A DNA stretch of 58,514 nucleotides from Bacilli bacterium (GCA_047973085.1 JBKEBI010000047.1:1-58514), one strand, 5' to 3'. Counted from the stretch's first letter, positions 5,329 through 43,775 are shown. Notes: generated by a model from the sequence alone, not told the origin. Program-made: numbers and translations.

Positions 5329-5378
5329 ATTTTCACCTCATCATCATTATATCATATAAAAAAAAAGAGACAAATATA

Positions 5379-6242
5379 TTATGTCTCATCAATACTTGGT
5401 GATGTAAAGTTACCAAAAACTTTTGCAGATTTTGTAACATTTATAAACGCATTTTCATCATATTTTTTAACAAGTTCTAGTACAGATGTAAGTTCAAAAC
5501 TTGTAACAACAATATATAAGAGTTGTCTTTCCATTCTTGTATATCCACCTATTGCTGGAATGATCGTAACACCTCTTGGAGATTTTTCTTGAAATTCATT
5601 GATTAAGCCTTCAGCATTAGATGTGTTAATCGTTATAGTAAGTTTTTGATAGCGCGTATGTAGTCTGTCAGTAACAACACTAGCAGTGTATGAACCAATT
5701 AAAGTGTATAACACAATTTCCAAATCAAACAGTAAAGCTGTTAAAGTAAGTACAACAATATTAAAAATTAGAGCTATAAACCCTATTGGCCTCCCTGTTC
5801 TCTCAGCAAAATAAAGTGAAATAATATCAGCACCTCCTGCACTACCTCCAGCTTGAAGCATTAATACCACTGCAAATCCTGTAAGAAGTCCACCAAAAAG
5901 TGACATTATTAATTTATCTGATGAAATCATTTGAATATTAGGTAAGATTTCTGAAAACATTGAAACAAATATTACTGATATAATTGTGTAAAATGTAAAT
6001 CGTTTTCCCAACTTAAACCAACTTAAAAAAAGTAGAGGAACGTTAAAAATAAAGTACAGAATACCAAAACTTATAAATCCATTTGTAACTGTTTCTATAA
6101 TTAGAATGATACCCATCAAACCACCTGTATATAACCCTACTGGTGATATAAAATACTTTACTGATGAAGCTAGTAAAAGTGATCCTACTATCATTAAAGT
6201 CATTTTTTTTAAATTAAAATATTTCTTAATCGTATTCAACAT
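5379..6242 (-). CDS. YitT family membrane protein (likely start 6242)
   Basis: GLYTGGLMG, GGSAGGADI, GVTIIPAIGGYT and DENAFI motifs. Confidence 0.85.
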   Translation of the reverse strand: MLNTIKKYFNLKKMTLMIVGSLLLASSVKYFISPVGLYTGGLMGIILIIETVTNGFISFGILYFIFNVPLLFLSWFKLGKRFTFYTIISVIFVSMFSEILPNIQMISSDKLIMSLFGGLLTGFAVVLMLQAGGSAGGADIISLYFAERTGRPIGFIALIFNIVVLTLTALLFDLEIVLYTLIGSYTASVVTDRLHTRYQKLTITINTSNAEGLINEFQEKSPRGVTIIPAIGGYTRMERQLLYIVVTSFELTSVLELVKKYDENAFINVTKSAKVFGNFTSPSIDET

Positions 6243-7302
6243 AAGTTTCATCCTTCCCTTCAAATTCAACATTTGTTATGTTATTAAATTTTTTTGTAAT
6301 TTTGTTAGAAGTAATTGTAATATCTTCTATATCCTTGTTAACTGATTTTATACTGCGACTCAGTTTATCAAAACGAACTGAATATCTATCAAACTCAACA
6401 CTTAACTTCTGTAACTCATCTTGAATAACTTTAGTATGCTTATCACGTTCAATATTTCTTATTACAACTTGAATTGTTGTTAGAGTAGCAATAAGAGTTG
6501 TTGGTGAGGTAATCCATACATTTTTTTTATTTGCATATTCAACAATATCCAAACAATATGACTGCATATATGCAAATACAGCTTCAGCTGGTAAAAACAT
6601 GATTGCCTGACTTGTTTCACCAGGAATAATATATTTACTTGCAATATCATCAATATGCTTCTTTAAGTCGTTCTTGAAAGATTGTAAATGTAATTTAAAG
6701 TCAGTATCCACACTACTATCAACAGCTCTTCTGTAATTTTCAAGAGGAAATTTTGAATCGATTCCAATTTTATTTAGTGGTTCAGGTGCAAACAAAATTG
6801 CATCTACCCTACTCCCAGTATGAAAAGAATATTGTAATCTGTAAATTTTATCATTTGATCCAAAAATAGAATACAAAATATTTTTTAATTGAACTTCACC
6901 AAAACTTCCACGCGCTGTTTTATCAGATAAAATAGACTGTAAACTAACAATATCTGTAGATAAATTTTCAATCTTTTTTTGTGCTTCATCTATTTTACTG
7001 AGACGTTCTACAATAGAAGTAAAAGTATCATTTGTCTTCTTAAAGTTCTCACTAATTTTATTGTTCAATGAATTATTAATATTATATAATTGATCATTTA
7101 AAAGTTTTGACATTGTATTATAACTCTGCTGTATTTGTTGTTCCATATTTGATTTTATTTCATTATTGTTTTTATAAATATTTAACTCAAATTTACCTAG
7201 TGTCTCAATTATAGAATCATTATTTTTACTTATAGATTTAATTAAAAGTAAAACTTGTAAAATCACAATTATAATCAAAACTAAAACAATTATTATATCC
7301 AT
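6226..7302 (-). CDS. rmuC: DNA recombination protein RmuC
   Basis: N-terminal TM and coiled coil, RGSFGEVQL, IDSKFP, MFLPAE, SPTTL. Confidence 0.92.
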   Translation of the reverse strand: MDIIIVLVLIIIVILQVLLLIKSISKNNDSIIETLGKFELNIYKNNNEIKSNMEQQIQQSYNTMSKLLNDQLYNINNSLNNKISENFKKTNDTFTSIVERLSKIDEAQKKIENLSTDIVSLQSILSDKTARGSFGEVQLKNILYSIFGSNDKIYRLQYSFHTGSRVDAILFAPEPLNKIGIDSKFPLENYRRAVDSSVDTDFKLHLQSFKNDLKKHIDDIASKYIIPGETSQAIMFLPAEAVFAYMQSYCLDIVEYANKKNVWITSPTTLIATLTTIQVVIRNIERDKHTKVIQDELQKLSVEFDRYSVRFDKLSRSIKSVNKDIEDITITSNKITKKFNNITNVEFEGKDETYVEYD

Positions 7303-7312
7303 TTTTATTCAC

Positions 7313-7909
7313 CTACTTTAAATTAACTTTCTTTTCAAAAATCTTACCAGTTACATATGCAACTATAACTAAAATTACTGGATAAATCAATGCAGAATAG
7401 CTCCCATTTTCCAATGCTTTGCTGACTGTAACCCCTACTAACGATAAATATGCAACCATAAAGAAATTTCCAATACCAAGAGCAATTAAATACATTCTTT
7501 TACTAATATCACTAAATGCTGCAGCTAAATTAACAAAAAAGTAAGGGAAAAATGGTAATGATAAAATTATTAATAATGAAGAAAAACTTCTTCTACTAAA
7601 CCATCTCTCAAATCTTAAAATTTTTGATTCTTTTTTTAATTTTTTTACAACTCTAGGTTTTATGATAAAACGTAAAAAAATGAAAACTGTATACGCACCT
7701 AAGTAATGTCCTACAAAAGATATCAAAAAGCCTATAACCATACCAAAAGATGTAACATTGGCAATTACTATTGCAAAAATAGGTAAAGGTGGAAATATAT
7801 TCTCAACAAAACTGAGAATAAATCCACCTAATAATCCTAATTTTTCAGTATAAAACTCAACTAGTTCAAGATATGAGTTTTCAAAAAGCATACTACTTAT
7901 TAACTTCAT
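7313..7909 (-). CDS. TVP38/TMEM64 (DedA/VTT) family membrane protein
   Basis: ENIFPPLP and LPFFPYFFVN motifs, hydrophobic. Confidence 0.8.
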   Translation of the reverse strand: MKLISSMLFENSYLELVEFYTEKLGLLGGFILSFVENIFPPLPIFAIVIANVTSFGMVIGFLISFVGHYLGAYTVFIFLRFIIKPRVVKKLKKESKILRFERWFSRRSFSSLLIILSLPFFPYFFVNLAAAFSDISKRMYLIALGIGNFFMVAYLSLVGVTVSKALENGSYSALIYPVILVIVAYVTGKIFEKKVNLK

Positions 7910-9143
7910 CTTTTATCCTTTTTACTTTAGCTGCTAAGCCATAGACTAACTCTGTGGGAATAGAACTAACAGCAAAACGTACTAAGTTTCCTGGCAATGG
8001 AATTGTATAAATATGATTTTCCATAAGTGCTTCAAAAACTTCATGACTACAGTTTGGTAAAGTTATAAAAAATCCTGATTTATAAGGGAGAGTTTCAAGC
8101 CCACATTCACTTGCTTCTTTCACAAAAATTTCTCCACGTTTACTAAGAAGTTTAACAGCTCTTTCAAGTTCATATTCAAACTCTTTTTTTGCCACTTCAT
8201 CATTTACAAGTTCTACAATAGTTCTGATTCCCAAATGGGAAGTACTAGACCATCTCCCTCGGGAACTAAATGAAATAATACGCTTAAACTCACTAATTAT
8301 TTCTTCATTTTTAGAAATTGCAAGCATTGCTCCTATTCTTATTCCATAAAATGATAAGGTTTTGCTTCCACTAAATGCGCAGATAATTAATAAATCTTGG
8401 TGCGCAGATTTAAATACGTCAAATGGCATACGACTAGCATCAAGTCCATCTTTATGATAATCAATATATGCCATATCATATAAAAGAGTTGTTGGAATTC
8501 CCTTTTCTGCATGTACATTTAATATTTTAATTACTCGTTCCCACTCTGATTGCTTTAATGTATAACCTGTAGGGTTTTGACATGGGTCATTAATTAAGAT
8601 TAGAATTTTTTCTTGAGAAATGGCAGCATTATCAACACATTTTTCAAAATCATCTAAATCAAAATTTCCATCACTATCAAATAAATTATATGTTTTTAAA
8701 TTTACATTTTGCTCTCTAGCCATAATTAAATATGGATCCCAGTAAACTTTTGGCACTAAAAAGTCATCATTTTCGTCTAAATAATTGGCAATAGTAGAAC
8801 TAATTGCCCCACTTCCTCCTGGGGTTGCACTTACTGCATAAAAAATATTATCTTTATAAAAATTATAATGTTGCCTAAAACTCCATTTTGCAATTGCCTC
8901 AGTGAAATCATCACCACCTGGTGTTGAAGTATATGGTAAATACTGAATTGGTTTTAAATTATTTGAAATCTTTAAAACTGAATCAAAATATGTAAAACTT
9001 GTATCATCTTCATAAAGCATCCCAACAGTTGCATTTACAGCTTCATTATTAGTTTCACATGCTTTTCTTGCTTCTACTCCAATCTTTAAAATATCATTTG
9101 TTATCCTTTTATCCTTTGCCCTTTTTGCCGCTATACTATTCAT
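7893..9143 (-). CDS. PLP-dependent class I/II aminotransferase
   Basis: TPGGSGA, NDPCQNPTG, DMAY and SGSKTLSFYGIRIG (PLP lysine). Confidence 0.9.
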   Translation of the reverse strand: MNSIAAKRAKDKRITNDILKIGVEARKACETNNEAVNATVGMLYEDDTSFTYFDSVLKISNNLKPIQYLPYTSTPGGDDFTEAIAKWSFRQHYNFYKDNIFYAVSATPGGSGAISSTIANYLDENDDFLVPKVYWDPYLIMAREQNVNLKTYNLFDSDGNFDLDDFEKCVDNAAISQEKILILINDPCQNPTGYTLKQSEWERVIKILNVHAEKGIPTTLLYDMAYIDYHKDGLDASRMPFDVFKSAHQDLLIICAFSGSKTLSFYGIRIGAMLAISKNEEIISEFKRIISFSSRGRWSSTSHLGIRTIVELVNDEVAKKEFEYELERAVKLLSKRGEIFVKEASECGLETLPYKSGFFITLPNCSHEVFEALMENHIYTIPLPGNLVRFAVSSIPTELVYGLAAKVKRIKDEVNK

Positions 9144-9159
9144 TTTGTACCTCCATGCT

Positions 9160-9411
9160 CTACTCTTCTATTTGTTTTAGTATAAAAAATGGTGCATCAT
9201 AAGCACACACTTTTTTTAAATGATGTTTATGCTCACTTTCGAAACTTTTTTGATAAAAACCAGTAAGTCTAAGAATTCCCGCACTCAAATCTCCCAAAAT
9301 ATAATCATATTTACCATAAAGATCAACATATCTATTAGAAAAATCTTCCTGCCAATCATCAAACTTGTATATTTCTATTACTTCATATTGATTAACTAAC
9401 TCACTATTCAT
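9160..9411 (-). CDS. YutD/DUF1027-like protein
   Basis: KYDYILGD...LRLTGFY...CAYDAPFFIL pattern. Confidence 0.75.
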   Translation of the reverse strand: MNSELVNQYEVIEIYKFDDWQEDFSNRYVDLYGKYDYILGDLSAGILRLTGFYQKSFESEHKHHLKKVCAYDAPFFILKQIEE

Positions 9412-12206: not shown

Positions 12207-12286
12207 ATGGCTACTCCTGTATTTTGGAGTATCAAAAAACCCTTATAGAATAAGGGCTTACGTCATAAATGGTCGGGAAGACAGGA
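12207..12286 (+). repeat. Distal copy of the 80-bp direct repeat (att site: tRNA 3' fragment plus terminator)
   Basis: 69/80 identical (hand count) to 16761-16840; 12270-12286 TGGTCGGGAAGACAGGA equals the last 17 nt of the tRNA. Confidence 0.92.
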
Positions 12287-12501
12287 CTTGTTAAAATCGT
12301 TTCTTATATTCCATATTTTCCGTATTTATTAGGTTTTGAATAGCACTTTCCACCTGATTTTGCCTTTTCTATAAAAAAATGGCTACTTTTGTGGCTACTT
12401 CTCATTTCTAATTCATTATATCATATTTAATCCATATATTAAAGTAATTTATATTCTATTTTTTACTATGTCTAATATATGCAAATAGCATTATAGGTAT
12501 T

Positions 12502-12532
12502 AAAAAAGTACGAATGTTTTGATACGTACTTT
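12502..12532 (-). terminator. Intrinsic terminator after the R-M specificity gene
   Basis: Minus strand AAAGTACG...CGTACTTTTTT. Confidence 0.6.
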
Positions 12533-12537
12533 AAGAA

Positions 12538-13695
12538 CTAAATTAATTTATCACTATAAGGTAATGATTTAATATAATTTTCAATCCATTTCCAATCTGG
12601 AATATATCCTTCATTAGAAAATTGTTTTGTTTTATCAATAACAAATCCATTTTCATCGCTTTGTACAGGTAACTTTATTACGAAATCTTTTTTATAATGC
12701 GTATTAAGTTCTCTCCCAAAAGCTTGGTATTTTATTTTACACTCATTTCTAATCAATGTTGCAAGGAATAACTTGACATAAACACTCATAGGAATTTTTT
12801 CAAGCAAAACAGCTACATTCTGAGCTGTATAAAATGGTTTATCCTGAATAAAACATGAACCTAAAAAACTTCCACCTAAAGCTAAAGACATTGCACCTTT
12901 TGGAAAAGGATTTTCTCCTTCAATTTCATCTACAAAATCAACTACTCCATTTCCATTACTATTACGAGACACATAGTTATACTTAGGCTCATCAGAAGTT
13001 GTACTCATTGTATCTATCCCATTTCCCATTGTACAATTCATAAGATCGTGTAAATAAAATGGTTTCCAATTTTGTGTATTTAATCTTAAGATATTTTCAC
13101 ATTTATTTTCTGTAGTCAATGGTTTGTGATTTAATGTTTTTATATAATTCTTCATAAAATTCCAATCAGGTATATACCCTTTGTCAGAATACTTAAATTC
13201 ACTATCAATAACATATTCGTTGTTGTCTTGTAGAACTGGTAATTTAATCTTAGATTTTGCCATTCGGGTAGGACGCCACTTTCTACCATATCCCCATCTG
13301 TATTGGTCATACATAATGACAGAAGCAATAAATAGACCAGTGAACTCGTCAAACTCACCATCTTTTCTGTATAATATATTTACGTCGTGACTACAAGTAA
13401 AAGTTTCATTTTGAAAAAAAGCATAACCAACTGAACCATTATTTGTTACACATACTGCATTTGATCTGAAAAGCTTCTTTTCTATCGGAGCATTAGGTTC
13501 ATTTCCTGTTTTAGAAGCGTTTTCAATATCTTCTAAACTATAATATTCCGTTACTCCATTATTGTTATCAACAGCACCTAAAAATGGTATATTTCCTTTA
13601 TTTGATAACTCAGGTTTTTTATTATAAAAACCCTTTTCTATCACAAATATTTTATCATAGTCAAAGAGTTTCCACCTTTCCTGATTAAGATTCAT
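12538..13695 (-). CDS. R-M specificity subunit with two TRDs (BcgI beta/HsdS-like); likely start MNLNQ at 13695
   Basis: Two homologous halves, each ending IKLPV...GYIPDW...NYIK(T/S)L; GAGGGGGG RBS overlapping the upstream gene end. Confidence 0.85.
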   Translation of the reverse strand: MNLNQERWKLFDYDKIFVIEKGFYNKKPELSNKGNIPFLGAVDNNNGVTEYYSLEDIENASKTGNEPNAPIEKKLFRSNAVCVTNNGSVGYAFFQNETFTCSHDVNILYRKDGEFDEFTGLFIASVIMYDQYRWGYGRKWRPTRMAKSKIKLPVLQDNNEYVIDSEFKYSDKGYIPDWNFMKNYIKTLNHKPLTTENKCENILRLNTQNWKPFYLHDLMNCTMGNGIDTMSTTSDEPKYNYVSRNSNGNGVVDFVDEIEGENPFPKGAMSLALGGSFLGSCFIQDKPFYTAQNVAVLLEKIPMSVYVKLFLATLIRNECKIKYQAFGRELNTHYKKDFVIKLPVQSDENGFVIDKTKQFSNEGYIPDWKWIENYIKSLPYSDKLI

Positions 13696-15550
13696 GTAAT
13701 CCCCCCTCTTTAACAAGATATGAAAGATAGGAATTAAGGACTTTTTGAAAGTCATCTTCACATAAATTAGAATAATCAGTTTCCATATACGCTTCTGCTA
13801 ACCATTCATCTTCGTATGTAACTCTATGCATTACAGATAAACCAACTTCTTCTCTTTTATTTTTGTATAATTCTAACCATTTTTCTTTTGTTTTAACCCA
13901 AAGACTATTTCCATCAACATCAGTTCGTTCAACTCGCCCCAAACCTTTTCTTTTAATAAATTTATCATCTTTAAAATAGCCAAAAAATGTATCTCTATTG
14001 GATTTTTCATGTTTTTGTGATAAATCAAATACCATACAGCATGCTACAGCAGAAGCACCTGGATAAAACATTTCGTTAGGTAATGAAAATACTGCGTCTA
14101 ACGTATATTTGTCTAGCATCTTCTTTTTAAATTCTTTTACATGAGCAGAATTTCCAATGGCAGCTTGCATTGGAAGTAGCACTGCTAATTTAGTTGAAGG
14201 CAAAACATGCCTAGCTACCCATTCTACAAAATGTAAACCTTTTGATGGGTCTTCTTTTTGCTTTGATGTCCATTTTTTTGTATATGATTGCTCACAGAAT
14301 TTTCTTGTTGCATTGTATGGGGGATTCATTAAAACCACATTGATGTTATTATCTTTAATCCATTTACCTTTGTCAAACATTGAATCATTTACAACATTAG
14401 AGTTTCCATCTCCATGTATAAGCATATTAGTTGAAGCCAAACCAAAAGCTCCTTCTTCATATTCTATACCAAATATTTGATTTTGTTTTACATCTTCTCT
14501 CTCTTCTTCAGTATCACAATCGTCCATTGCTTCTGTCATAGCTCTAACTAAAAATGCCCCACTTCCACAACAGGGATCAAGAACTCTCGAATTTTTATTA
14601 ACACCAACTACACTGGACATAAAATCACAAATATGGTCTGGTGTAAAAGCTTGATTTTTATCTGACTTTCCAACATATTTATTAAAAGTTGTAAAAAATA
14701 GATTTAGTAAGTCTTGACCTGCTGTATTCTTATCGTTGATATAAGGTACAATATTTTCTTCTACAAATACTAATACTTCTTTCAGTTCTGAATAAGTTAG
14801 ACTAGTAACATCTTGGTCACCTAAAACTTTGTTATTTAATATTGCTAACTTGCTAGCTTTATTTAAACTTCCACCTTTAGTTAATAGCCCTTCTAGTATG
14901 TCTTGTATACTTTTTATTATAACTTTTTCAGGTGAAATAGTTTCTCCTGTTTTAGGGTCAATAGTCTCTTTAACATCTTTATATACAAGTCCATTTTTTA
15001 AAGCTAGTAAACAAGTACCAACAAATTGACTACGTAATTTTTCGTTTATTCCATCAGCATGTAGTTTATCATTTAATAATTTAATTGAGTCTACGATTTT
15101 TATTTTATCATTGATTTTACCAAAAAGTAAATCCTCGTATTCCTCAAATATTTTTAAAGTTGTTTCAGTTGTTGATTTATGTTCATCATCAATAATCACA
15201 GATTGACCATACCACAGCCATAATTCATCACCATCAGTTTCTGCAAGTATTGCAATAATTTTTTTATCAGAGTATTCCTTTTCAAAACGAACGTATTCTT
15301 GTAATTGTGATTGAATTTTATTCTTATCCCACTTTGAGAACTTATTCTTACATTCCACCAAAATAACTAATCTCTCATTTTCAAAGCGTAAATCAAGATA
15401 TTGATGATTCTGACCAGATGTTGCATTTTGATATTGCTTAATATCTTTTCCAACAGATTTCAACGCCTGAACATAGCTAAACTCTCCACTTTCTGTATTA
15501 CCAACTCTGTATTTTTCACCAATTTTAGAACTAATGTCAAATCTATTCAT
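13685..15550 (-). CDS. Fused endonuclease/N6-adenine methyltransferase (BcgI alpha-like, Type IIB/IIG)
   Basis: N-terminal LD-x10-ECK PD-(D/E)xK-like motif, FTPDHI, LDPCCGSGAFL (motif I), MNPPY (motif IV). Confidence 0.88.
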   Translation of the reverse strand: MNRFDISSKIGEKYRVGNTESGEFSYVQALKSVGKDIKQYQNATSGQNHQYLDLRFENERLVILVECKNKFSKWDKNKIQSQLQEYVRFEKEYSDKKIIAILAETDGDELWLWYGQSVIIDDEHKSTTETTLKIFEEYEDLLFGKINDKIKIVDSIKLLNDKLHADGINEKLRSQFVGTCLLALKNGLVYKDVKETIDPKTGETISPEKVIIKSIQDILEGLLTKGGSLNKASKLAILNNKVLGDQDVTSLTYSELKEVLVFVEENIVPYINDKNTAGQDLLNLFFTTFNKYVGKSDKNQAFTPDHICDFMSSVVGVNKNSRVLDPCCGSGAFLVRAMTEAMDDCDTEEEREDVKQNQIFGIEYEEGAFGLASTNMLIHGDGNSNVVNDSMFDKGKWIKDNNINVVLMNPPYNATRKFCEQSYTKKWTSKQKEDPSKGLHFVEWVARHVLPSTKLAVLLPMQAAIGNSAHVKEFKKKMLDKYTLDAVFSLPNEMFYPGASAVACCMVFDLSQKHEKSNRDTFFGYFKDDKFIKRKGLGRVERTDVDGNSLWVKTKEKWLELYKNKREEVGLSVMHRVTYEDEWLAEAYMETDYSNLCEDDFQKVLNSYLSYLVKEGGLHES

Positions 15551-15636
15551 TAACGTTCCCCTCTCTAGTCGTAATGTTGAGTATTTATCGTTAAAACAAA
15601 TTTATAGTATTTAACAACAATTATATTATATTATAA

Positions 15637-16727
15637 TCAGATTATATAATCAAGTTTATCTGCTATTTCTCTATCTTTACTATCATAAAGATGTCCATAC
15701 ACGTTTAAAGTAATTCCAACATCAGTATGACCTAATCTTTTCTTAATTGCTAATATATCTTCCTTCGTATGAATAAGTAAAGCAACATGACTATGTCCTA
15801 AGTCGTGAATTCTAATTTTAGGTAAGTTTGCTTTTTTAGTATATTCAGTAAATTTTCTATCAATTTTAGTTTTAGCAAATATATCATTGTTATAAGAAAA
15901 AACATATGAAGCATCATCAAAGTGTACAAAATCATTTCTACACTTTTCTTTGTAAGAAGCTAAATTGTCAACAAGTTTGTTATTTATCATTACATGTCTT
16001 ATTGATGATTCTGTTTTGGGTTTTGATATAACATAACCTATTCTAACAATATATGAGCAACTTTTATTTATTTTAATCCATTTCTTTTTTAAATCAATGT
16101 CGTTCCAAGTGAGAGCTAATGCTTCTCCGCTTCTTATTCCAGTAAAGTACATTAAGTAGAATAAGGTGTAGTAAATCTTGTTATCTACATTTTCAATAAA
16201 GCCTTTAAACTCATTAATAGTCCAAAACTTCATAGTAACTTTTTCTTTCTTAAAATTGTCAATTGTAATTGATGGATTCTTATATATTAATTCCTGCTTC
16301 ATGCAGTAATTAAAGAATGTTTTAAGTGCAGTTAAAATATACCTTTTGTAGTTGTTACTAATATCTTGCTGTGCTAGTAAGTTTCTAAATTCAGCTACTT
16401 CTTTTTTTGTAATATCTCTGATTCTAAACTTTTTAAAATGTTCTGTAATATGGTTTCTAAAGATATTACATTTCTTTTCATAAGTAGATGGTTTATCATA
16501 CATCTTTGAATATTCTAGATAATCTTCAACTACTTTTTCACTGATGGATTGTCTGTTACATCAATTCCTTGATTCTCAAGATTAGTTATTTCATTTAGAA
16601 CTTCCTTTGCCTCTTTGTAAGTTTTAATACCTCTTCTTACAATTCTTTTTCTCTTACCAGTTTTTAGATTAATTCCTGCTGAAATATCAACAATATAGTC
16701 ATTGTTTTTGTCTTTTCTTATAGACAT
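15637..16727 (-). pseudogene. Tyrosine integrase, frameshifted at about 16533-16540, with HxxR changed to HxxG
   Basis: N-terminal arm-binding part (16530-16727) and catalytic part (TGIRSGE, PKT, HDLGH, LGH, Y) lie in different frames. Confidence 0.88.
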
Positions 16728-16760
16728 TTGAATCATCTCCATTCTAGAAATGAAAATAAA

Positions 16761-16840
16761 ATGGCTACTCCTGTATTTTGGAGTATCAAAAAAGCCTTAT
16801 AGAATAAGGCTTTCAAAACATAATGGTCGGGAAGACAGGA
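16761..16840 (+). repeat. tRNA-proximal copy of the 80-bp direct repeat
   Basis: Matches 12207-12286. Confidence 0.92.
16788..16813 (-). terminator. Intrinsic terminator downstream of the tRNA
   Basis: Minus strand AAAGCCTTAT-TCT-ATAAGGCTTTTTT. Confidence 0.8.
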
Positions 16841-16900
16841 TTCGAACCTGCGACCCCCTGGTCACAAACCATGTGCACTACCAAGCTGTGCTACTTCCCG
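16824..16900 (-). tRNA. tRNA with a Pro-type body but UGU (Thr) anticodon
   Basis: CGGGAAGTAGCACAGCTTGGTAGTGCACATGGTT-TGT-GACCAGGGGGTCGCAGGTTCGAATCCTGTCTTCCCGACCA; 77-nt cloverleaf with encoded CCA; anticodon at 16866-16864. Confidence 0.93.
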
Positions 16901-16911
16901 AACGATAGTTC

Positions 16912-16940
16912 ATTATATCAATTTTTAAAATCTAATGCAA
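16912..16940 (-). promoter_or_regulatory. Sigma-A promoter of the tRNA
   Basis: TTGCAT-17 bp-TATAAT with extended -10 TG, ending 11 nt before the tRNA 5' end. Confidence 0.85.
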
Positions 16941-16959
16941 TAGTTTTTCAAAATTTTAT

Positions 16960-17604
16960 TTATTCATTTTCTGTAGTAAAAATATATCCAATATTTCTTT
17001 TGTTTTTTATATTAATATTGTATGGTTTAATTTTCCTTTTTAATGTACAAACATATGTATCTACTGATCTTGTTTTTTCATTAGAGTTCCATATTAGTTT
17101 TATTAGTTCTTGCTTTGAAATATATTTATTTATATTTTTTATTAATATATATATAATCATAAACTCCTTATATGTTAAATTTAGTACATTGTTATCTATG
17201 TAAACCTTTTTTTTATTATAATCTATAAGTAAATTTTTATATTTTACACAATCATATTTTAACTTATTCAAATATTTTGAAAAAGTTCTAATTTTGTAAA
17301 GTAATTCAACATATGAAAAGGGATAGATAAAATAATCATCCATTCCAATTTCATAGTTTGTTAAAATAATTTTTTGATTATACTCATTAAAGATACAAAT
17401 AATAATTGCATCTGATTTTTTTCTAAAATATTCTAAATTAGTAAAAGTAGGCTCTACTAAAATTACTATTTCACCAAATTTAATATTACCTAAGGCATAT
17501 ATACTACTATAGAATAAACAGTAAAATTTAAAATGTCTAGAAAAATACTTTAAATTTTTGTTCAATTCTTTATTTTGTGAAACAACGTGTAAATAATTAT
17601 ACAT
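16960..17604 (-). CDS. OmpR-type winged-helix regulator with degenerate receiver domain
   Basis: GMDDYFIYPF, LTYKEF, IW...TRSVDTYVCTLKRKI, RNIGY; no recognisable acidic pocket. Confidence 0.75.
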   Translation of the reverse strand: MYNYLHVVSQNKELNKNLKYFSRHFKFYCLFYSSIYALGNIKFGEIVILVEPTFTNLEYFRKKSDAIIICIFNEYNQKIILTNYEIGMDDYFIYPFSYVELLYKIRTFSKYLNKLKYDCVKYKNLLIDYNKKKVYIDNNVLNLTYKEFMIIYILIKNINKYISKQELIKLIWNSNEKTRSVDTYVCTLKRKIKPYNINIKNKRNIGYIFTTENE

Positions 17605-17653: not shown

Positions 17654-20521
17654 TTATTTATCTTTTTTTACATTTTTATTTAAAATTAAATATAGTGAAG
17701 GAATTACACATAATGATAGAGGAATAGCAATAATTAGCCCTCCTACAAGTGTAATCGCCATAGGTCTAAAGAAATCACTTCCGACAATTATTAAAGGAAT
17801 TAAACCTATTATAGTTGTAATATTAGAAGTAATAATTGGTCTACTTCTTCTTTTAACAGCTGTAAAACATTTATCATAAACACTCTCTTCTGGACTCTTA
17901 TTAATATAATCTACTAATAAAATTCCATTGTTGACAACTATTCCCATTAAACTAACGAGTCCTAGTGTTGCTGTAAATGTAATGGGTTGATCAAAAATTA
18001 AAATAAACAATGCACTTCCTATTAGTGAAAATAAAATTGAAGTCAAAATAATAATAACTTTTTTAAAGCTGTTAAATTGTGCTAGTAATATCATCAAAAT
18101 TAGTAATAGTGCTGCAATACCTGCATAAATAACATTTGTAAAAACAGTTGTTGTAAGCTCTTTTTCACCTTTAATAATATAGTTTGCATTTTCTTTATCT
18201 AAAATTTCTTCAACTGCATCATTTACATTATACACAGTATAATTGCTATCTACAAATACATCAATTGTATTAGCAACTTTGAAATCGGTTCTTGAAATTG
18301 ATACTGGTGTTTCAACAGTTTCAATTTTAACAAGATCACTAAGAATAAAGGTTTGCTCATTCACTGTGATAATTTGGTTTAAAAGTTCATCCATACTGTC
18401 TATATTATTTGATACAACAATTTCATCACTTACACTATCAATATTTAATACATTTACATCTGTATCATTAATAAGACGTGCTATTTCATTGTAAACTTGT
18501 GCTTCATTAATACCAAATTGCATTAAAATTTCATCATTTGTATCAATACTATACTTTTCTGAATATTCTAACGTCGAAGACTGAATACTTTCAACTCCAT
18601 CAATATTTTCAAGTTTTTTAATCAAATTTTCTGTTTTGTCAATGTCATATAAAATAATTTGTATTGGTGCCCCTGGAGCATTCATCATAATCTCTTCTAC
18701 ATTAAAAGTAACATCATCAGGTAATTTATTATTTAACACATTCTTAATTCGCTCTATTTCTTCACTGTTACTTCCTTCATTAATGTATAAAACTCTTCCA
18801 GTATTTGGAGTTTTTGAATTTGCTACCAGAGTTGAATAAAAAGCAGGAATGGAATAATTAATACTACTAATAACATTTTCACTATCAATGTTTTCTTCAA
18901 TAATATTTTTTATTTCTTCAACTTCTTCTAGTCGGTTACTACTACTTAATTCAAAGTCTACATAGATATAATCTTTTTCTGCTGTAGGAAATAATTGAAT
19001 TGGTTGAAATATATATACTCCACCTATTGATACTACAAGTAAAACAAGGACAATAAGAACGTTTACTTTAGGAAAACGAAGTGAAAATCTTATAAGTTTA
19101 TCAACAAATTTAAATTCGTTTCTATTTCTTGGTTTTAGCAACTTAGATCCAAATACAGGTATTACAAAAATCGAACTTAAAAATGAACAAATTAAGGCAG
19201 CAATAACTGTAATAGGTAACGAGGAAGCCATTTTACCAGCTATTCCTGGTAAGAATAAAAGAGGTGTAAATGCAACTACTGTTGTCAATGTACTTGTAAA
19301 AATAGGTAATGCATTTGTTTTAATAGCATCTGAAATACTTTTATCCATATTATTTCCTGATTCTAGTTCATGAATAATTGCATCTACTATAACTATAGCA
19401 TTGTCAACGATTATTCCAATACTAATAATCAGACCAGCAATTGATACATTTTGCAGAGGCACATTTATTAAATCAAGAAATAATATTGTAGTAAATATTG
19501 TCAATGGAAAAGTAATTAAAATCGTTAATGCACTTCTAATTCCCAATGAAAACATTGAAACAATTAGAACAAGAACCATCCCTACTAATAAAGTTGAATT
19601 TATTTCATTAATTGCATCATCAACATAATCTGGTGAAAAACTAACTGCCTTAAATGAAGGATAATTTTCTGCAATGTCTTTAACTTCATCACCCACTTTT
19701 GTCACATCAATTTCTTGATCGAATTGCACACTTAAAAACAAAGAATCCTCTCCATTATAGGTATTTACATAATCTTTATTTTCATTTAGTACAATTTCAC
19801 TGACCATATCAAGTGTAATAATTGTATTATTATTTACACCTATTACAGTTGAATTTAATTCCTCTATATCATCAAAACCATTAGTTGTTATCACCGGATT
19901 TCCCTCAATAATCCCTAATGTTGCATCAATTCCTTTGCTACTTAAAAGTTGCGTTATTATACTGCTATCAATTCCGTATGTAGCAAGCATATTATTATCC
20001 AAATTAACTTGGTAATTTGACAAAGAATAATCACTTATTTTAACATTTTTTACTGAATCAAGTGAATATAAATCACTTTGAAATTGCTCAGCTTTATCTA
20101 AATCATCTCTAGGAAAAACGTACAATAAATCACTTACTCCAGGATATGGACTTACTTCTATATCTACATTTTCGTCAAAAGTTAAACCTGCAATAGCATT
20201 ATTTAACTTTGATTCTACTTCATTAACATTTTCAACTTCTATATCATATACAATAATCATTAGTCCAAAGTTATCATATGCATATGAAAAAACATCTCCA
20301 ATTCCATCAATACCTGAAACTTGAGAATTAATTGTTTCAATAACATCTCTATCTAGTTCTTCATTATTTTTCCCAACAGCCTCGATTGTAATTTGTGTAT
20401 AAAGTGATCCAAGATCAGGATTTTCCTGTTTTGGAATATTAATAAAAGAATTAATTCCAAGAATAATTAAACCTATTGAAATTGAAATAAATAACCTTTT
20501 TAACCTTAATAATTTGTTCAT
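17654..20521 (-). CDS. RND (AcrB/SwrC-like) efflux transporter permease
   Basis: IPKQENP, GIIVDNAIV, STLTTVVAFTPL, GIVVNNGILL, RSRPI motifs; 955 aa. Confidence 0.9.
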   Translation of the reverse strand: MNKLLRLKRLFISISIGLIILGINSFINIPKQENPDLGSLYTQITIEAVGKNNEELDRDVIETINSQVSGIDGIGDVFSYAYDNFGLMIIVYDIEVENVNEVESKLNNAIAGLTFDENVDIEVSPYPGVSDLLYVFPRDDLDKAEQFQSDLYSLDSVKNVKISDYSLSNYQVNLDNNMLATYGIDSSIITQLLSSKGIDATLGIIEGNPVITTNGFDDIEELNSTVIGVNNNTIITLDMVSEIVLNENKDYVNTYNGEDSLFLSVQFDQEIDVTKVGDEVKDIAENYPSFKAVSFSPDYVDDAINEINSTLLVGMVLVLIVSMFSLGIRSALTILITFPLTIFTTILFLDLINVPLQNVSIAGLIISIGIIVDNAIVIVDAIIHELESGNNMDKSISDAIKTNALPIFTSTLTTVVAFTPLLFLPGIAGKMASSLPITVIAALICSFLSSIFVIPVFGSKLLKPRNRNEFKFVDKLIRFSLRFPKVNVLIVLVLLVVSIGGVYIFQPIQLFPTAEKDYIYVDFELSSSNRLEEVEEIKNIIEENIDSENVISSINYSIPAFYSTLVANSKTPNTGRVLYINEGSNSEEIERIKNVLNNKLPDDVTFNVEEIMMNAPGAPIQIILYDIDKTENLIKKLENIDGVESIQSSTLEYSEKYSIDTNDEILMQFGINEAQVYNEIARLINDTDVNVLNIDSVSDEIVVSNNIDSMDELLNQIITVNEQTFILSDLVKIETVETPVSISRTDFKVANTIDVFVDSNYTVYNVNDAVEEILDKENANYIIKGEKELTTTVFTNVIYAGIAALLLILMILLAQFNSFKKVIIILTSILFSLIGSALFILIFDQPITFTATLGLVSLMGIVVNNGILLVDYINKSPEESVYDKCFTAVKRRSRPIITSNITTIIGLIPLIIVGSDFFRPMAITLVGGLIIAIPLSLCVIPSLYLILNKNVKKDK

Positions 20522-42523: not shown

Positions 42524-42550
42524 CCATAAAAAAAGGGAAATAATTCCCTT
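42524..42550 (-). terminator. Terminator-like hairpin between proS and priA
   Basis: Minus strand AAGGGAA-TTAT-TTCCCTTTTTTT. Confidence 0.6.
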
Positions 42551-43775
42551 ATACTAAATCAGAAACTGCAACTAAAATTGGCTCATCAAAATGATTACGG
42601 TATTCAACATATCCATCTTTGAAATCTTTACCAATAATATACTTTCTTGGAATTCCAATTAAATCTGCGTCTTTAAGTTTAGAGCCCATTCGTTCATCAC
42701 GATCATCTATTAAACATTCAAGGCTATCTGCCATAAATTTTTCTTCAAGCTTAAATGCAAATTCCATTTGTTCTTTATTTGCTGTATCACCAACAATAAC
42801 ATGAATATCATATGGAGCAATTTCATCAGGCCACATTACAACTGCATCTTTTGAATGTTGTTCTAATACAGCCATTGTAATTCTACTTATCCCAATTCCA
42901 TAACATCCCATTACGATTGGAATTAAATTACCAGCAGCATTATTTATGTTTGCATTTAAAGCCTCTGAATATTTTGTACCAAGTTGAAAAATATGTCCTA
43001 ACTCAATACCTTTTGCCTCTTCAATTTCACTATCACACTTTGGACATGGAGCACCTTCAAATAAGTCACTAACTTCCTGATTAGCACTATATCCACACTT
43101 TCTACAGAATGTTATAGTATCTTCACCTATTTCACAAAGCGCCATAAATTCATGACTAGAAGTTCCACCAATATCTCCGTTATCAGCTTCTATTCTAACA
43201 AAATCAAGCCCACATCTCGTAAAAATATTGCTATATACTTCACTAACTTTATCATACCATTCTTGTAAACATTCCTGTGACTCATGAAAAGTATATAAAT
43301 CTTTCATAATAAATTCTCTACCACGCATTAATCCAAACCTTGGTCTAAATTCATCTCTAAATTTATTTTGTATTTGATATAAACCAAATGGCAATTTTTT
43401 GTATGATTTTACATGAGTTTTAACAATATCAGTAATCACTTCTTCATGTGTTGGACCAAGACAAAATTCACGTTCATGTCTATCAGTTAATCTCATTAAG
43501 TTATCGCCATATGCATCCCATCTTCCAGTCTGATCCCAAAGTGTTTTAGGTTGTAAAACTGGCATATATAATTCTGAACATCCTATTTTATTATGCTCCT
43601 GTCTTGTAATTTCTGAAATCTTTTTTATTACTCTATAGCCTATAGGTAAATAGGAATATACTCCTGCTGCAGTTTGATGAGCATACCCTCCCCTAAGTAA
43701 TATTTTATGTGACTGAATTACAGCATCGTTACTTACTTCTTTTAATGTTGGAATAAATTCTAAACTTTGTCTCAT
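42549..43775 (-). CDS. proS: Proline--tRNA ligase, bacterial type lacking the INS editing domain
   Basis: GPTHEE, KFRDEFRPRFGLMRGREFIMKD, GIELGHIFQLG, MGCYGIG, DDRDER; only 408 aa. Confidence 0.96.
   Translation of the reverse strand: MRQSLEFIPTLKEVSNDAVIQSHKILLRGGYAHQTAAGVYSYLPIGYRVIKKISEITRQEHNKIGCSELYMPVLQPKTLWDQTGRWDAYGDNLMRLTDRHEREFCLGPTHEEVITDIVKTHVKSYKKLPFGLYQIQNKFRDEFRPRFGLMRGREFIMKDLYTFHESQECLQEWYDKVSEVYSNIFTRCGLDFVRIEADNGDIGGTSSHEFMALCEIGEDTITFCRKCGYSANQEVSDLFEGAPCPKCDSEIEEAKGIELGHIFQLGTKYSEALNANINNAAGNLIPIVMGCYGIGISRITMAVLEQHSKDAVVMWPDEIAPYDIHVIVGDTANKEQMEFAFKLEEKFMADSLECLIDDRDERMGSKLKDADLIGIPRKYIIGKDFKDGYVEYRNHFDEPILVAVSDLV

What the first reader, a model, noticed from the sequence alone, without database searches (positions are those of the whole stretch)
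16824..16940. tRNA with proline identity elements but a threonine anticodon (UGU): candidate mistranslating tRNA
Seen: the 77-nt gene is a Firmicutes tRNA-Pro in almost every position (C1:G72, G2:C71, A73, 9-nt D-loop AGCTTGGTA, U32, G37), but the anticodon is UGU rather than UGG, and there is one A28-G42 mismatch. It keeps a paired D-stem, T-arm and acceptor stem, an encoded CCA, a near-consensus extended -10 promoter and a terminator, so it should be expressed. Knowledge: ProRS reads G72/A73 plus G35/G36. ThrRS reads G35/U36 with G1:C72/C2:G71, which are absent here. U36 tRNAs normally have A37, and TrmD needs G36-G37. In Streptomyces, tRNA-ProA (AGU anticodon) with ProRSx deliberately inserts Pro at Thr codons. 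Inference: this may be an independent Pro-at-ACA/ACN mistranslation system, an isoacceptor caught mid-switch, or a spare tRNA kept as an integration site. ACA still encodes conserved Thr here, so it is not a full code change.
Basis: partly seen in the sequence, partly recalled or inferred. Interest (0 to 1): 0.85.

Follow-up and report, generated by a model that had tools for sequence, protein, structure and literature searches.

The report
Proline tRNA gene with threonine anticodon
This is the genome's ordinary stand-alone proline tRNA gene with two private base changes, one of which turns its anticodon into a threonine one; it looks like a freshly disabled spare copy or an assembly error, not an evolved mistranslation system.

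Summary
Window 16824-16900 (-) is a 77-nt tRNA with a proline-type body, anticodon UGU, G37 and an A28/G42 mismatch.

It differs from the tRNA-Pro(UGG) of four relatives at two positions only: C28A and G36U. All 28 other Pro-type tRNAs taken from relatives' loci carry NGG.

Nothing marks a dedicated system:
- There is one ProRS and one ThrRS, and no ProRSx.
- The tRNAProX hallmarks are absent.
- ACA is not depleted, and ACA and CCN still align with Thr and Pro.
- No other Firmicutes-type Pro body with this anticodon loop was found in about 185,000 species genomes.

As assembled, the genome has no CCN decoder although 2.4% of codons are CCN, so the assembly is either incomplete or wrong here.

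A second gene, the solitary elongator tRNA-Met, also carries two private C>A/G>T changes in its anticodon stem. In the sister species, Pro and Met also sit in an Arg-Pro-Met cluster at a contig end.

My estimates:
- Real but redundant, recently disabled copy, at most a weak accidental Thr-to-Pro mistranslator: about 0.45.
- Assembly or sequence artefact: about 0.3.
- Adaptive mistranslator: under 0.1.

The read check failed.

The gene is also the attachment site of a 4.5-kb integrase and methyltransferase island.

The parts
16824..16900 (-). 77-nt tRNA gene with a proline-type body and anticodon UGU (here called Pro*)
   Evidence: ARAGORN; Rfam RF00005 at 59.9 bits; 75/77 identical to the tRNA-Pro(UGG) of G002, G040, G026 and G012.
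16864..16866 (-). Anticodon U34-G35-U36. Base 16864 is the private G36U change.
   Evidence: Relatives have TGG here: 27 TGG and 1 CGG among 28 Pro-type tRNAs.
16872..16872 (-). A28, the private C28A change. It is mismatched with G42 at 16858.
   Evidence: The cloverleaf energy is -24.6 against -28.0 kcal/mol for the G002 sequence, and the minimum-energy fold no longer forms the anticodon arm.
16912..16940 (-). Putative promoter: TTGCAT, a 17-nt spacer, then TGATATAAT (an extended -10 box)
   Evidence: Read. G002 has TTGCTT, 17 nt, then TATAAT at the same place. The site was not listed by the consensus scan.
16788..16812 (-). Terminator-like hairpin with a T-run, directly after the CCA
   Evidence: Read. 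The same hairpin follows the tRNA-Pro of G002.
16761..16840 (-). attL: the tRNA 3' end (19 bp exact, 16822-16840) plus a 49-bp block (16761-16809), both repeated at the far end of the island
   Evidence: blastn within the window.
12207..12286 (-). attR: a direct repeat of the tRNA 3' end (12268-12286, 19/19) and of the downstream block (12207-12255, 48/49). It carries the G002-like form of the terminator.
15637..16742 (-). Tyrosine integrase split into two reading frames (16530-16742 and 15637-16503). The frame shifts at an A5 run near 16530.
   Evidence: Pfam Arm-DNA-bind_4, Phage_int_SAM_3 and Phage_integrase. The junction was read.
12538..15550 (-). Island cargo: an N6-adenine DNA methyltransferase (13685-15550, 621 aa) and a type I-like specificity subunit (12538-13761)
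   Evidence: Pfam N6_Mtase at 3.5e-33 and Methylase_S at 1.2e-21. No restriction subunit was seen.
42549..43775 (-). The genome's only ProRS. It is the bacterial type, 408 aa, and lacks the INS editing domain.
   Evidence: TIGR00409 matches model positions 1-236 and 387-548. NF006625 scores 583.4 bits against a cut-off of 558.

Best explanation
The gene is the lineage's stand-alone tRNA-Pro(UGG) gene, the orthologue of the one in the sister genus. It keeps its own promoter and terminator. In this assembly it carries two private G:C-to-T:A transversions in the anticodon arm: G36U changes the anticodon to UGU, and C28A breaks the 28:42 pair.

It is not a member of an evolved Pro/Thr mistranslation system. 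My preferred reading is that the allele is real and the gene is a redundant copy that was disabled very recently. The working tRNA-Pro would then lie in DNA missing from this 95%-complete, 89-contig assembly, which has no 16S gene. A plausible place is an Arg-Pro-Met cluster like the one at a contig end in the sister species.

The solitary elongator tRNA-Met gene of the same genome shows the same kind of damage. That fits the idea that exactly the two tRNAs backed up by such a cluster are decaying.

Inferred, not shown: if transcribed, the product would be processed normally and would lack m1G37, because by recalled knowledge TrmD needs G36-G37. It would have a weak anticodon stem. The single ProRS would charge it with proline at reduced efficiency. 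It would compete with the canonical tRNA-Thr(UGU) for ACA/ACG, giving low-level, probably harmful Thr-to-Pro errors. C28A may be a second hit that damps this effect.

Independently of all this, the 3' end of the gene serves as the attachment site of a 4.5-kb island.
For: Descent:
- The gene is 75/77 identical to the tRNA-Pro(UGG) of G002 (same family), G040, G026 and G012. All 28 other Pro-type tRNAs found in the 29 relatives' loci scanned carry NGG (27 TGG, 1 CGG).

Orthology:
- G002's tRNA-Pro stands alone and has the same downstream hairpin and GATACTC block.
- It lies 735 bp from genes syntenic with window 5376-9387.

Paralogy of the sister species' copy:
- Pro* is 2 nt from the G002 tRNA-Pro but 6 nt from the G001 one.
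- In contrast, 14 of the 24 G000 tRNAs with a same-anticodon counterpart in G001 are identical to it, and none of the other tRNAs with a counterpart in both relatives is closer to G002's copy than to G001's.
- G001's only assembled tRNA-Pro sits in an X-Pro-Met cluster at the end of contig C72.
- At the G001 site orthologous to the window's tRNA there is an IS fragment and a contig end.

Second case in the same genome:
- The elongator tRNA-Met at C39:13754-13830 equals G001's C4 copy except for TTCGG>TTATG. This breaks two adjacent stem pairs. All 11 relatives' copies aligned keep the stem paired.
- Over 22 tRNAs and 1730 nt, the three-way count lists 5 G000-private changes: G36U in Pro*, the two in Met*, and a benign D-loop change counted in both Asp copies. 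C28A is private too but is not counted, because G001's paralogue has a third base there.

Incomplete assembly:
- There is no tRNA-Pro(UGG), Tyr or Leu(UAA).
- There is no 16S gene, and 5S genes lie at contig ends.

Mutation type:
- No MutY scores above its cut-off in G000, G001 or G002. By recalled knowledge, loss of MutY raises G:C-to-T:A changes.

No dedicated system:
- There is one ProRS and one ThrRS.
- ACA is 48.7% of Thr codons, against 52.9% in G001 and 42.6% in G002.
- ACA aligns with T in 364 of 686 cases, and P is not among the six commonest partners. CCA aligns with P in 408 of 512 cases.

Chargeability:
- G36U lowers charging by E. coli ProRS 9-fold, against 164-fold for G36C (PMC10404621, section 10).

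Island:
-. The repeat starts at tRNA position 59, so positions 28 and 36 are host DNA.
Against: - The postulated second tRNA-Pro was not found. No other full or partial tRNA-Pro match exists in the assembly apart from attR, and there is no trace of G001's cluster tRNA X.
- The region next to G001's cluster looks like a mobile element (ParA, ParB, RadC and SpaA domains) and has almost no counterpart in G000. The cluster may therefore be specific to G001.
- G002 has only solitary Pro and Met genes in its assembly, although that assembly also lacks 5S rRNA.
- All four changes fall within positions 28-36 and all are C>A or G>T. None of the 20 G000-private changes in RNase P RNA is of that type. 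Such a tight, uniform pattern could equally point to an artefact.
- Neutral decay would not be expected to concentrate in the anticodon arm.
- No read-level confirmation was possible.
Confidence: 0.45

Rival explanations
1. Assembly or sequencing artefact. The organism's real gene would be a normal tRNA-Pro(UGG), its only one as in G002. The four odd bases in Pro* and Met* would then be consensus errors in a metagenome-assembled genome.
For: - As assembled, the genome cannot read CCN, although CCN makes up 2.44% of codons in 712 long ORFs.
- In the assemblies of the two closest relatives there is one tRNA-Pro each.
- All four changes are C>A or G>T. By recalled knowledge this is the class produced by oxidative damage and by A/C and G/T channel cross-talk. 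They cluster within 9 nt in two structured, GC-rich genes.
- None of the 20 G000-private RNase P changes is of this type.
- The allele is absent from every other collection scanned.
- All 5 full-length Pro-type UGU tRNAs seen among species genomes, including this one, come from MAGs.
Against: - The assembly is otherwise clean. The 21 compared tRNAs other than Pro* and Met* show no disruptive private change.
- RNase P RNA scores as well as in the relatives: 279 bits against 267 and 275.
- Long ORFs are intact. Only the island integrase is frameshifted among about 20 genes around the site.
- Two independent errors within 9 nt, occurring twice, are very unlikely at that error rate. I can name no mechanism that would pick out Pro and Met.
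- No other species supplies this allele for a chimeric path.
Confidence: 0.3
2. A working, selected mistranslating tRNA. It would be expressed, charged with proline by the housekeeping ProRS, and would insert Pro at ACA/ACG. This would be a Firmicutes-type analogue of tRNAProT that needs no ProRSx.
For: - The promoter, terminator, CCA, acceptor stem, D-arm and T-arm are intact.
- The proline identity elements C1:G72 and A73 are kept, together with G35.
- E. coli ProRS charges a G36U tRNA-Pro only 9-fold worse. It charges tRNAProT about 4-fold worse than its cognate tRNA, and tRNAProT mistranslates in E. coli without ProRSx.
Against: - The allele is private. It was not found in G001, G002 or the 38 class-level relatives searched. 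The strict pattern gave 0 hits in about 185,000 species genomes.
- There is no ProRSx.
- None of the A33, A34, G21 or A15:A48 features of tRNAProX is present (one search compared).
- The extra A28/G42 mismatch weakens the arm.
- ACA is not avoided.
- According to a review, Thr-to-Pro is the most harmful of the three tRNAProX substitutions in E. coli (PMC11415595, section 17).
- The parallel damage in tRNA-Met has no mistranslation logic, because its anticodon is unchanged.
Confidence: 0.08
3. An alloacceptor shift in progress. The gene would be on its way to becoming a second tRNA-Thr(UGU), charged by ThrRS through G35/U36.
For: - The anticodon carries G35 and U36, which by recalled knowledge are ThrRS identity elements.
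- Anticodon shifts of duplicated tRNA genes are documented in eukaryotes (PMC3923123; only the listing and abstract were seen).
Against: - The acceptor stem is C1:G72/G2:C71 rather than G1:C72/C2:G71, and position 37 is G rather than A.
- A canonical tRNA-Thr(UGU) already exists at C16:2867-2942.
- No body change toward a Thr identity is seen. The only other change breaks a stem pair.
Confidence: 0.05
4. A scar left by a mobile element that targets the anticodon loop of tRNA-Pro. Positions 27-36 would have been copied from an element's imperfect attachment site, by gene conversion or by aberrant excision.
For: - Many 3'-half remnants of tRNA-Pro begin at the anticodon stem and carry TTTGTGA. 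These are 6 of 10 genome hits and 14 of 16 metagenome hits, several with an intact 5' stem strand.
- This tRNA is a proven integration target.
Against: - The pattern used in those scans selected for TTTGTGA, so the remnants show no enrichment.
- The island present here recombined 3' of position 58.
- No donor sequence exists in the genome or in viral contigs.
- This reading does not explain the changes in tRNA-Met.
Confidence: 0.03

Closest known systems
tRNAProT of the tRNAProX family (Kitasatospora/Streptomyces), paired with ProRSx. Source: PMC10404621 (passages and section 10 read) and PMC11415595 (sections 17 and 18 read).
   Same: Both have a proline-type body with C1:G72, A73, G35 and U36, and a threonine anticodon. 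In E. coli the housekeeping ProRS can charge such a tRNA, giving Thr-to-Pro substitutions.
   Different: - tRNAProT has anticodon AGU with A34 and A33, plus G21 and an A15:A48 pair. It forms a conserved family (11 genomes) and is encoded next to ProRSx.
- The tRNA here has U33, U34, A21 and G15:C48. It is two substitutions away from the local housekeeping tRNA-Pro.
- It has no ProRSx, no relatives with the same allele, and an extra stem mismatch.
Laboratory G36U mutant of E. coli tRNA-Pro, as cited in PMC10404621 section 10
   Same: It carries the same single identity change, G36U, in a UGG-type tRNA-Pro. Charging drops 9-fold, so the mutant is still a ProRS substrate.
   Different: That mutant is engineered and was assayed in vitro. 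The change here is a natural sequence in an uncultured genome, combined with C28A, and is untested.
Sporadic anticodon-variant tRNA genes and tRNA pseudogenes. Examples are the human tRNA anticodon variants (PMC11415595, section 19 passages) and eukaryotic anticodon shifts (PMC3923123, abstract only).
   Same: In each case a point mutation in the anticodon of one member of a redundant tRNA gene set creates a potential mistranslator or a dead gene.
   Different: Those cases occur in large multigene families. Here redundancy is only inferred, because the genomes of this family carry about 30 tRNA genes with one tRNA-Pro each in their assemblies.
Genomic islands integrated at the 3' end of a tRNA gene by a tyrosine integrase
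   Same: A direct repeat of the tRNA 3' end flanks the island. The integrase gene lies next to the tRNA, and the cargo is a DNA methyltransferase with a specificity subunit.
   Different: The integrase is frameshifted. The repeat extends about 60 nt beyond the tRNA, through its terminator. The island does not account for the anticodon change.

Membership tests
Housekeeping tRNA-Pro(UGG) of this bacterial class (by descent) | Sequence near-identity to the relatives' tRNA-Pro, including C1:G72, G2:C71 and A73 | tested here: met
   75/77 identical to G002, G040, G026 and G012; 82-97% identical to the other 24 Pro-type tRNAs listed (percentages).
Housekeeping tRNA-Pro(UGG) of this bacterial class (by descent) | Anticodon NGG, with G36 followed by G37 | tested here: not met
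   The anticodon is UGU; G37 is kept. All 28 relatives' Pro-type tRNAs carry NGG.
Housekeeping tRNA-Pro(UGG) of this bacterial class (by descent) | Same locus as in a relative | tested here: met
   G002's tRNA-Pro shares the downstream hairpin block and has a promoter at the same place, next to the syntenic block 5376-9387. However, its orientation relative to that block is inverted, and 2.9 kb plus the island lie between the block and the tRNA.
tRNAProX/ProRSx mistranslation system | A proline acceptor identity (C1:G72, A73) combined with a non-proline anticodon | tested here: met
tRNAProX/ProRSx mistranslation system | The rare body features A33, A34, G21 and A15:A48 | tested here: not met
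   The sequence shows U33, U34, A21 and G15 with C48. The features are as listed in PMC10404621 and PMC11415595.
tRNAProX/ProRSx mistranslation system | A dedicated ProRS paralogue (ProRSx) encoded next to the tRNA | tested here: not met
   There is only one ProRS in the genome, 26 kb away. The tRNA's neighbours are an integrase and an OmpR-type regulator.
tRNAProX/ProRSx mistranslation system | Conservation of the variant tRNA across related genomes | tested here: not met
   0 of 40 relatives carry it, and the strict pattern gave 0 hits in genome contigs.
Canonical bacterial tRNA-Thr(UGU) | A G1:C72/C2:G71 acceptor stem and A37 (features recalled from memory), and likeness to the genome's own tRNA-Thr | tested here: not met
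   The tRNA has C1:G72, G2:C71 and G37. The genome's own tRNA-Thr at C16 starts GCCAGC, has loop CTTGTAA, and is unrelated in its body.
tRNA-targeting integrative island | A direct repeat of the tRNA 3' end at the far boundary, and a tyrosine integrase adjacent to the tRNA | tested here: met
   A 19/19 repeat plus a 48/49 repeat. The integrase domains are present but split by a frameshift.

The most novel reading that the evidence does not exclude
The allele is real and expressed. An uncultured small-genome bacterium would then carry a spontaneously arisen tRNA-Pro(UGU) that its ordinary, editing-domain-less ProRS charges with proline. The result would be proteome-wide Thr-to-Pro ambiguity at ACA/ACG without any dedicated synthetase. 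The parallel remodelling of the anticodon stem of elongator tRNA-Met would then point to a shared, non-random process acting on the anticodon arms of solitary tRNA genes. In both genes the two changes create a 4-nt stretch complementary to the anticodon plus position 37.
Probability: 0.1. Interest if true: 0.8.

Novelty: new member of a known kind. Interest (0 to 1): 0.35.

Why it matters
If the allele is real, it captures the first step of a tRNA identity change in a bacterium with a minimal tRNA set. One base, G36U, turns a proline tRNA into a potential Thr-to-Pro mistranslator, and published E. coli data say the normal ProRS would still charge it. That would show that such tRNAs can arise without a dedicated synthetase, and it would show how quickly they are damped or lost.

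If the allele is an artefact, it is a useful warning. A single metagenome-assembled genome can display convincing hybrid-identity tRNAs. A simple test exposes the problem: ask whether the assembled tRNA set can still read all codons.

In either case this finding does not establish a new mistranslation system.

Tried and rejected
- Read-level check. The look-up of sequencing runs listed 11 holders, all kept as contigs. I draw no conclusion on reads, strains, habitat or expression.
- The strict pattern scan of genome contigs for a Firmicutes-type Pro body with loop TTTGTGA gave 0 hits.
- A looser pattern gave 10 genome hits and 16 metagenome hits. Six are full-length Pro-type UGU tRNAs (L077, L078, L080, L084, L090, L091), from unrelated sources with no shared features. 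The other 20 are 3'-half att remnants that the pattern itself selected.
- In L077 the UGU copy is an inverted duplicate of an adjacent normal tRNA-Pro(UGG) at a contig end. I rejected it as a meaningful precedent.
- Two viral-contig scans gave 0 hits.
- I tested whether the island integration caused the changes and rejected the idea, because the repeat begins at position 59.
- I tested for codon reassignment and rejected it.
- The tRNA annotated as SeC(tca) is a genuine 97-nt selenocysteine tRNA and gives no hint of an altered genetic code.
- A search of G000 for any fragment of the sister species' cluster tRNA X, or for a second tRNA-Pro, found nothing.
- My first stem-mismatch script had an off-by-one error in the T-stem. 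It was corrected.
- Supplementary files of the papers were not consulted.

Full report
**1. The observation**

ARAGORN finds a single tRNA in the window, at 16824-16900 on the minus strand, with anticodon tgt. Rfam's tRNA model matches the same place at 59.9 bits, E 1.8e-10.

- C1:G72, G2:C71, A73 and an encoded CCA.
- The 9-nt D-loop AGCTTGGTA.
- The loop TTTGTGA (U32, U33, UGU, G37).
- One A28/G42 mismatch, at 16872/16858.
- The anticodon's third base at 16864.
- TGATATAAT 4 nt upstream of the gene, with TTGCAT 17 nt before its TATAAT hexamer.
- A hairpin with a T-run directly after the CCA.

The crude consensus scan did not list this promoter, because its -35 hexamer matches only 3 of 6 positions. 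It listed a different hairpin. Those two features therefore rest on my reading and on their conservation in G002.

**2. Descent**

A search of 40 relatives (1 same genus, 1 same family, 38 same class) with the 77 nt matched in 36 of them. ARAGORN on the 29 relatives' loci stored from that search gave 28 Pro-type tRNAs: 27 with TGG and 1 with CGG. The remaining locus was cut short at a contig end.

Four of these tRNAs are identical to the window's tRNA except at two positions. They come from G002 (same family), G040, G026 and G012. The two differences are C28 (A here) and G36 (T here). The gene is therefore a two-substitution derivative of the class's housekeeping tRNA-Pro(UGG).

The cloverleaf loses 3.4 kcal/mol (-24.6 against -28.0), and the minimum-energy fold no longer forms the anticodon arm.

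**3. Locus**

G002's tRNA-Pro also stands alone, with a promoter at the same place. It has the same downstream hairpin and GATACTC block. It lies 735 bp from genes syntenic with window 5376-9387. Its orientation relative to that block is inverted.

In the window, the tRNA's 3' end (19 bp exact) and a further 49-bp block (48/49) are repeated at 12286-12207. Three things lie between the repeats:
- A tyrosine integrase split by a frameshift at an A5 run.
- A 621-aa N6-adenine methyltransferase.
- A type I-like specificity subunit.

This is a 4.5-kb island integrated at the tRNA's 3' end. The far repeat carries the G002-like form of the terminator, as expected for the displaced host copy. Homology starts at tRNA position 59, so positions 28 and 36 lie in host DNA. 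The island therefore does not explain the two changes.

**4. Is there a system around it?**

The genome has one bacterial-type ProRS (window 42549-43775, 408 aa, lacking the INS domain) and one ThrRS (C74). It has no ProRS paralogue.

The published Pro/Thr hybrids (tRNAProT) have anticodon AGU, A33, A34, G21 and A15:A48, and sit next to ProRSx (PMC10404621, passages; PMC11415595, section 17). None of these features is present here.

Codon evidence shows no reassignment or avoidance:
- ACA is 48.7% of Thr codons in 712 long ORFs. The small samples from G001 and G002 give 52.9% and 42.6%.
- ACA aligns with T in relatives in 364 of 686 cases, and P is not among the six commonest partners.
- CCA aligns with P in 408 of 512 cases. 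This count comes from tblastx pairs, which include some noise from non-coding frames.

A strict pattern for a Firmicutes-type Pro body with loop TTTGTGA found nothing in about 185,000 species genomes. A looser pattern found four full-length Pro-type UGU tRNAs in unrelated MAGs and two on metagenome contigs, plus 20 att-site remnants. One of the four (L077) is an inverted duplicate of a normal neighbour at a contig end. There is no conserved family.

**5. The genome-level contradiction**

ARAGORN finds 32 tRNAs in the 1.416-Mb, 89-contig, 94.9%-complete genome. None is tRNA-Pro(NGG), yet CCN makes up 2.44% of codons. G002 and G001 each have one tRNA-Pro in their assemblies.

Tyr and Leu(UAA) are also missing. 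In the relatives those two sit at the end of a Val-Thr-Gln-Lys-Tyr-Leu cluster, and the sister species also has a near-duplicate cluster. A collapsed repeat would explain their loss, but it would not explain the loss of Pro.

So either the sequence is wrong here, or a working tRNA-Pro is missing from the assembly.

**6. A second affected tRNA**

I checked all G000 tRNAs for stem mismatches and compared them with G001 and G002. One more anomaly appeared. The solitary elongator tRNA-Met (C39:13754-13830) equals G001's C4 copy except for TTCGG>TTATG in the 5' strand of the anticodon stem. This breaks two adjacent pairs. All 11 relatives' copies aligned keep the stem paired.

Over 22 tRNAs and 1730 nt, the three-way count lists 5 G000-private changes: G36U in Pro*, the two in Met*, and one benign D-loop change counted in both Asp copies. 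C28A in Pro* is private too, but that count misses it because G001's paralogue has a third base at that position.

RNase P RNA scores as well as in the relatives, at 279 bits against 267 and 275. None of its 20 G000-private changes is C>A or G>T.

All four odd changes are C>A or G>T and lie in positions 28-36. In both genes they create a 4-nt stretch complementary to the anticodon plus position 37. I cannot explain that last point.

**7. Why Pro and Met?**

By my reading of the coordinates, tRNA-Pro and elongator tRNA-Met lie within about 200 nt of each other in 14 of the 22 relatives where both were matched. The 14 include G001. There, an X-Pro-Met cluster sits at the very end of contig C72. 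By likeness recalled from memory, X is an Arg(ACG)-type tRNA.

G000's Pro* is 2 nt from G002's solitary Pro but 6 nt from G001's cluster Pro. By contrast, 14 of the 24 G000 tRNAs with a same-anticodon counterpart in G001 are identical to it, and none of the others with a counterpart in both relatives is closer to G002's copy. G001's tRNA-Pro is therefore a paralogue. The solitary Pro gene is missing at its expected place in G001, where an IS fragment and a contig end are found.

This suggests that the genus has, or had, a backup Pro-Met cluster which makes the solitary genes dispensable. G000's assembly has no 16S gene and has 5S genes at contig ends, so tRNA clusters next to repeats could well be missing.

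Against this:
- No fragment of such a cluster is in G000.
- G001's cluster lies beside ICE-like genes that have almost no counterpart in G000, so the cluster may be specific to G001.

None of the three genomes has a MutY above its cut-off, while Fpg is present. By recalled knowledge that condition favours G:C-to-T:A mutations, so the change type does not by itself prove an artefact.

**8. Mechanism, if the allele is real**

None of the following is shown here.
- The transcript would be processed like any tRNA.
- TrmD would not methylate G37 after U36 (recalled knowledge).
- ProRS would still charge it. In E. coli, G36U costs 9-fold against 164-fold for G36C, and tRNAProT is charged about 4-fold worse than the cognate tRNA and mistranslates without ProRSx (PMC10404621, section 10).
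- It would compete with the canonical tRNA-Thr(UGU) (C16:2867-2942) at ACA/ACG.
- Thr-to-Pro is reported as the most harmful of the three tRNAProX substitutions in E. coli (PMC11415595, section 17). A second hit that weakens the anticodon stem (C28A) would therefore be favoured.

This gives a coherent picture of a spare gene being silenced, not of an adaptive device.

**9. Verdict**

The anatomy is confirmed. The 'mistranslation system' reading is not supported.

My probabilities are:
- 0.45: real allele in a redundant, recently disabled solitary tRNA-Pro gene, at most a weak accidental mistranslator.
- 0.30: assembly or sequence artefact.
- 0.08: selected mistranslator.
- 0.05: shift toward tRNA-Thr.
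- 0.03: scar left by a mobile element.
- The remainder is unassigned.

The decisive test is reads over 16864/16872 and a search for a second tRNA-Pro.

Noticed in passing
G000:C39:13754-13830 (outside the window): The solitary elongator tRNA-Met has two adjacent private changes (TTCGG>TTATG) that break two anticodon-stem pairs. Its G001 orthologue is otherwise identical. The changes are of the same type (C>A, G>T) and in the same region as those in the Pro-like tRNA.
   Followed up: yes
window 12207-16840: A 4.5-kb island is integrated at the tRNA's 3' end. It carries a frameshifted tyrosine integrase, a 621-aa N6-adenine methyltransferase whose first ~290 residues match no Pfam family, and a two-domain specificity subunit. 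No restriction subunit is present. From memory it resembles a BcgI-like two-gene system.
   Followed up: partly
window 42549-43775 (-): The only ProRS is a 408-aa bacterial-type enzyme without the INS editing domain. A short Cys-rich segment (CxxC...CxxC) stands in the place of the domain.
   Followed up: partly
G000:C16:2782-3466, compared with G002:C4 and G001:C46/C83: G000 has a Val-Thr-Gln-Lys-Leu(CAA) cluster but lacks Tyr and Leu(UAA). In relatives these two end a Val-Thr-Gln-Lys-Tyr-Leu(UAA) cluster. This is probably a collapsed repeat in the assembly.
   Followed up: partly
loci L079, L081, L086, L092, L093, L098, L100 and others: 3'-half copies of tRNA-Pro start at the anticodon stem and carry TTTGTGA in place of TTTGGGA. 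Several come from Prochlorococcus records. They look like att remnants of islands that target the anticodon loop of tRNA-Pro.
   Followed up: no
G001:C28:1-700 and G001:C72:5900-19300 (L168, L032): In the sister species, the site orthologous to the window's tRNA holds a degenerate IS (DDE transposase) fragment at a contig end. Its Arg-Pro-Met tRNA cluster adjoins ParA, ParB, RadC-domain and SpaA-domain genes, which look like an integrated conjugative element.
   Followed up: partly
window 16960-17604 (-): This is an OmpR-type regulator with a clear winged-helix output domain but no Pfam receiver-domain hit. It lies directly upstream of the tRNA and downstream of an AcrB-family transporter (17654-20521).
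   Followed up: no
G000, G001 and G002 genomes: None of the three genomes has a MutY above the family cut-off; only an Nth-like 235-aa paralogue matches. Fpg is present in all three. This may contribute to the 28% G+C content.
   Followed up: partly
window 16823-17203 (+): A 126-aa ORF runs antisense through the tRNA gene. It is almost certainly spurious.
   Followed up: no
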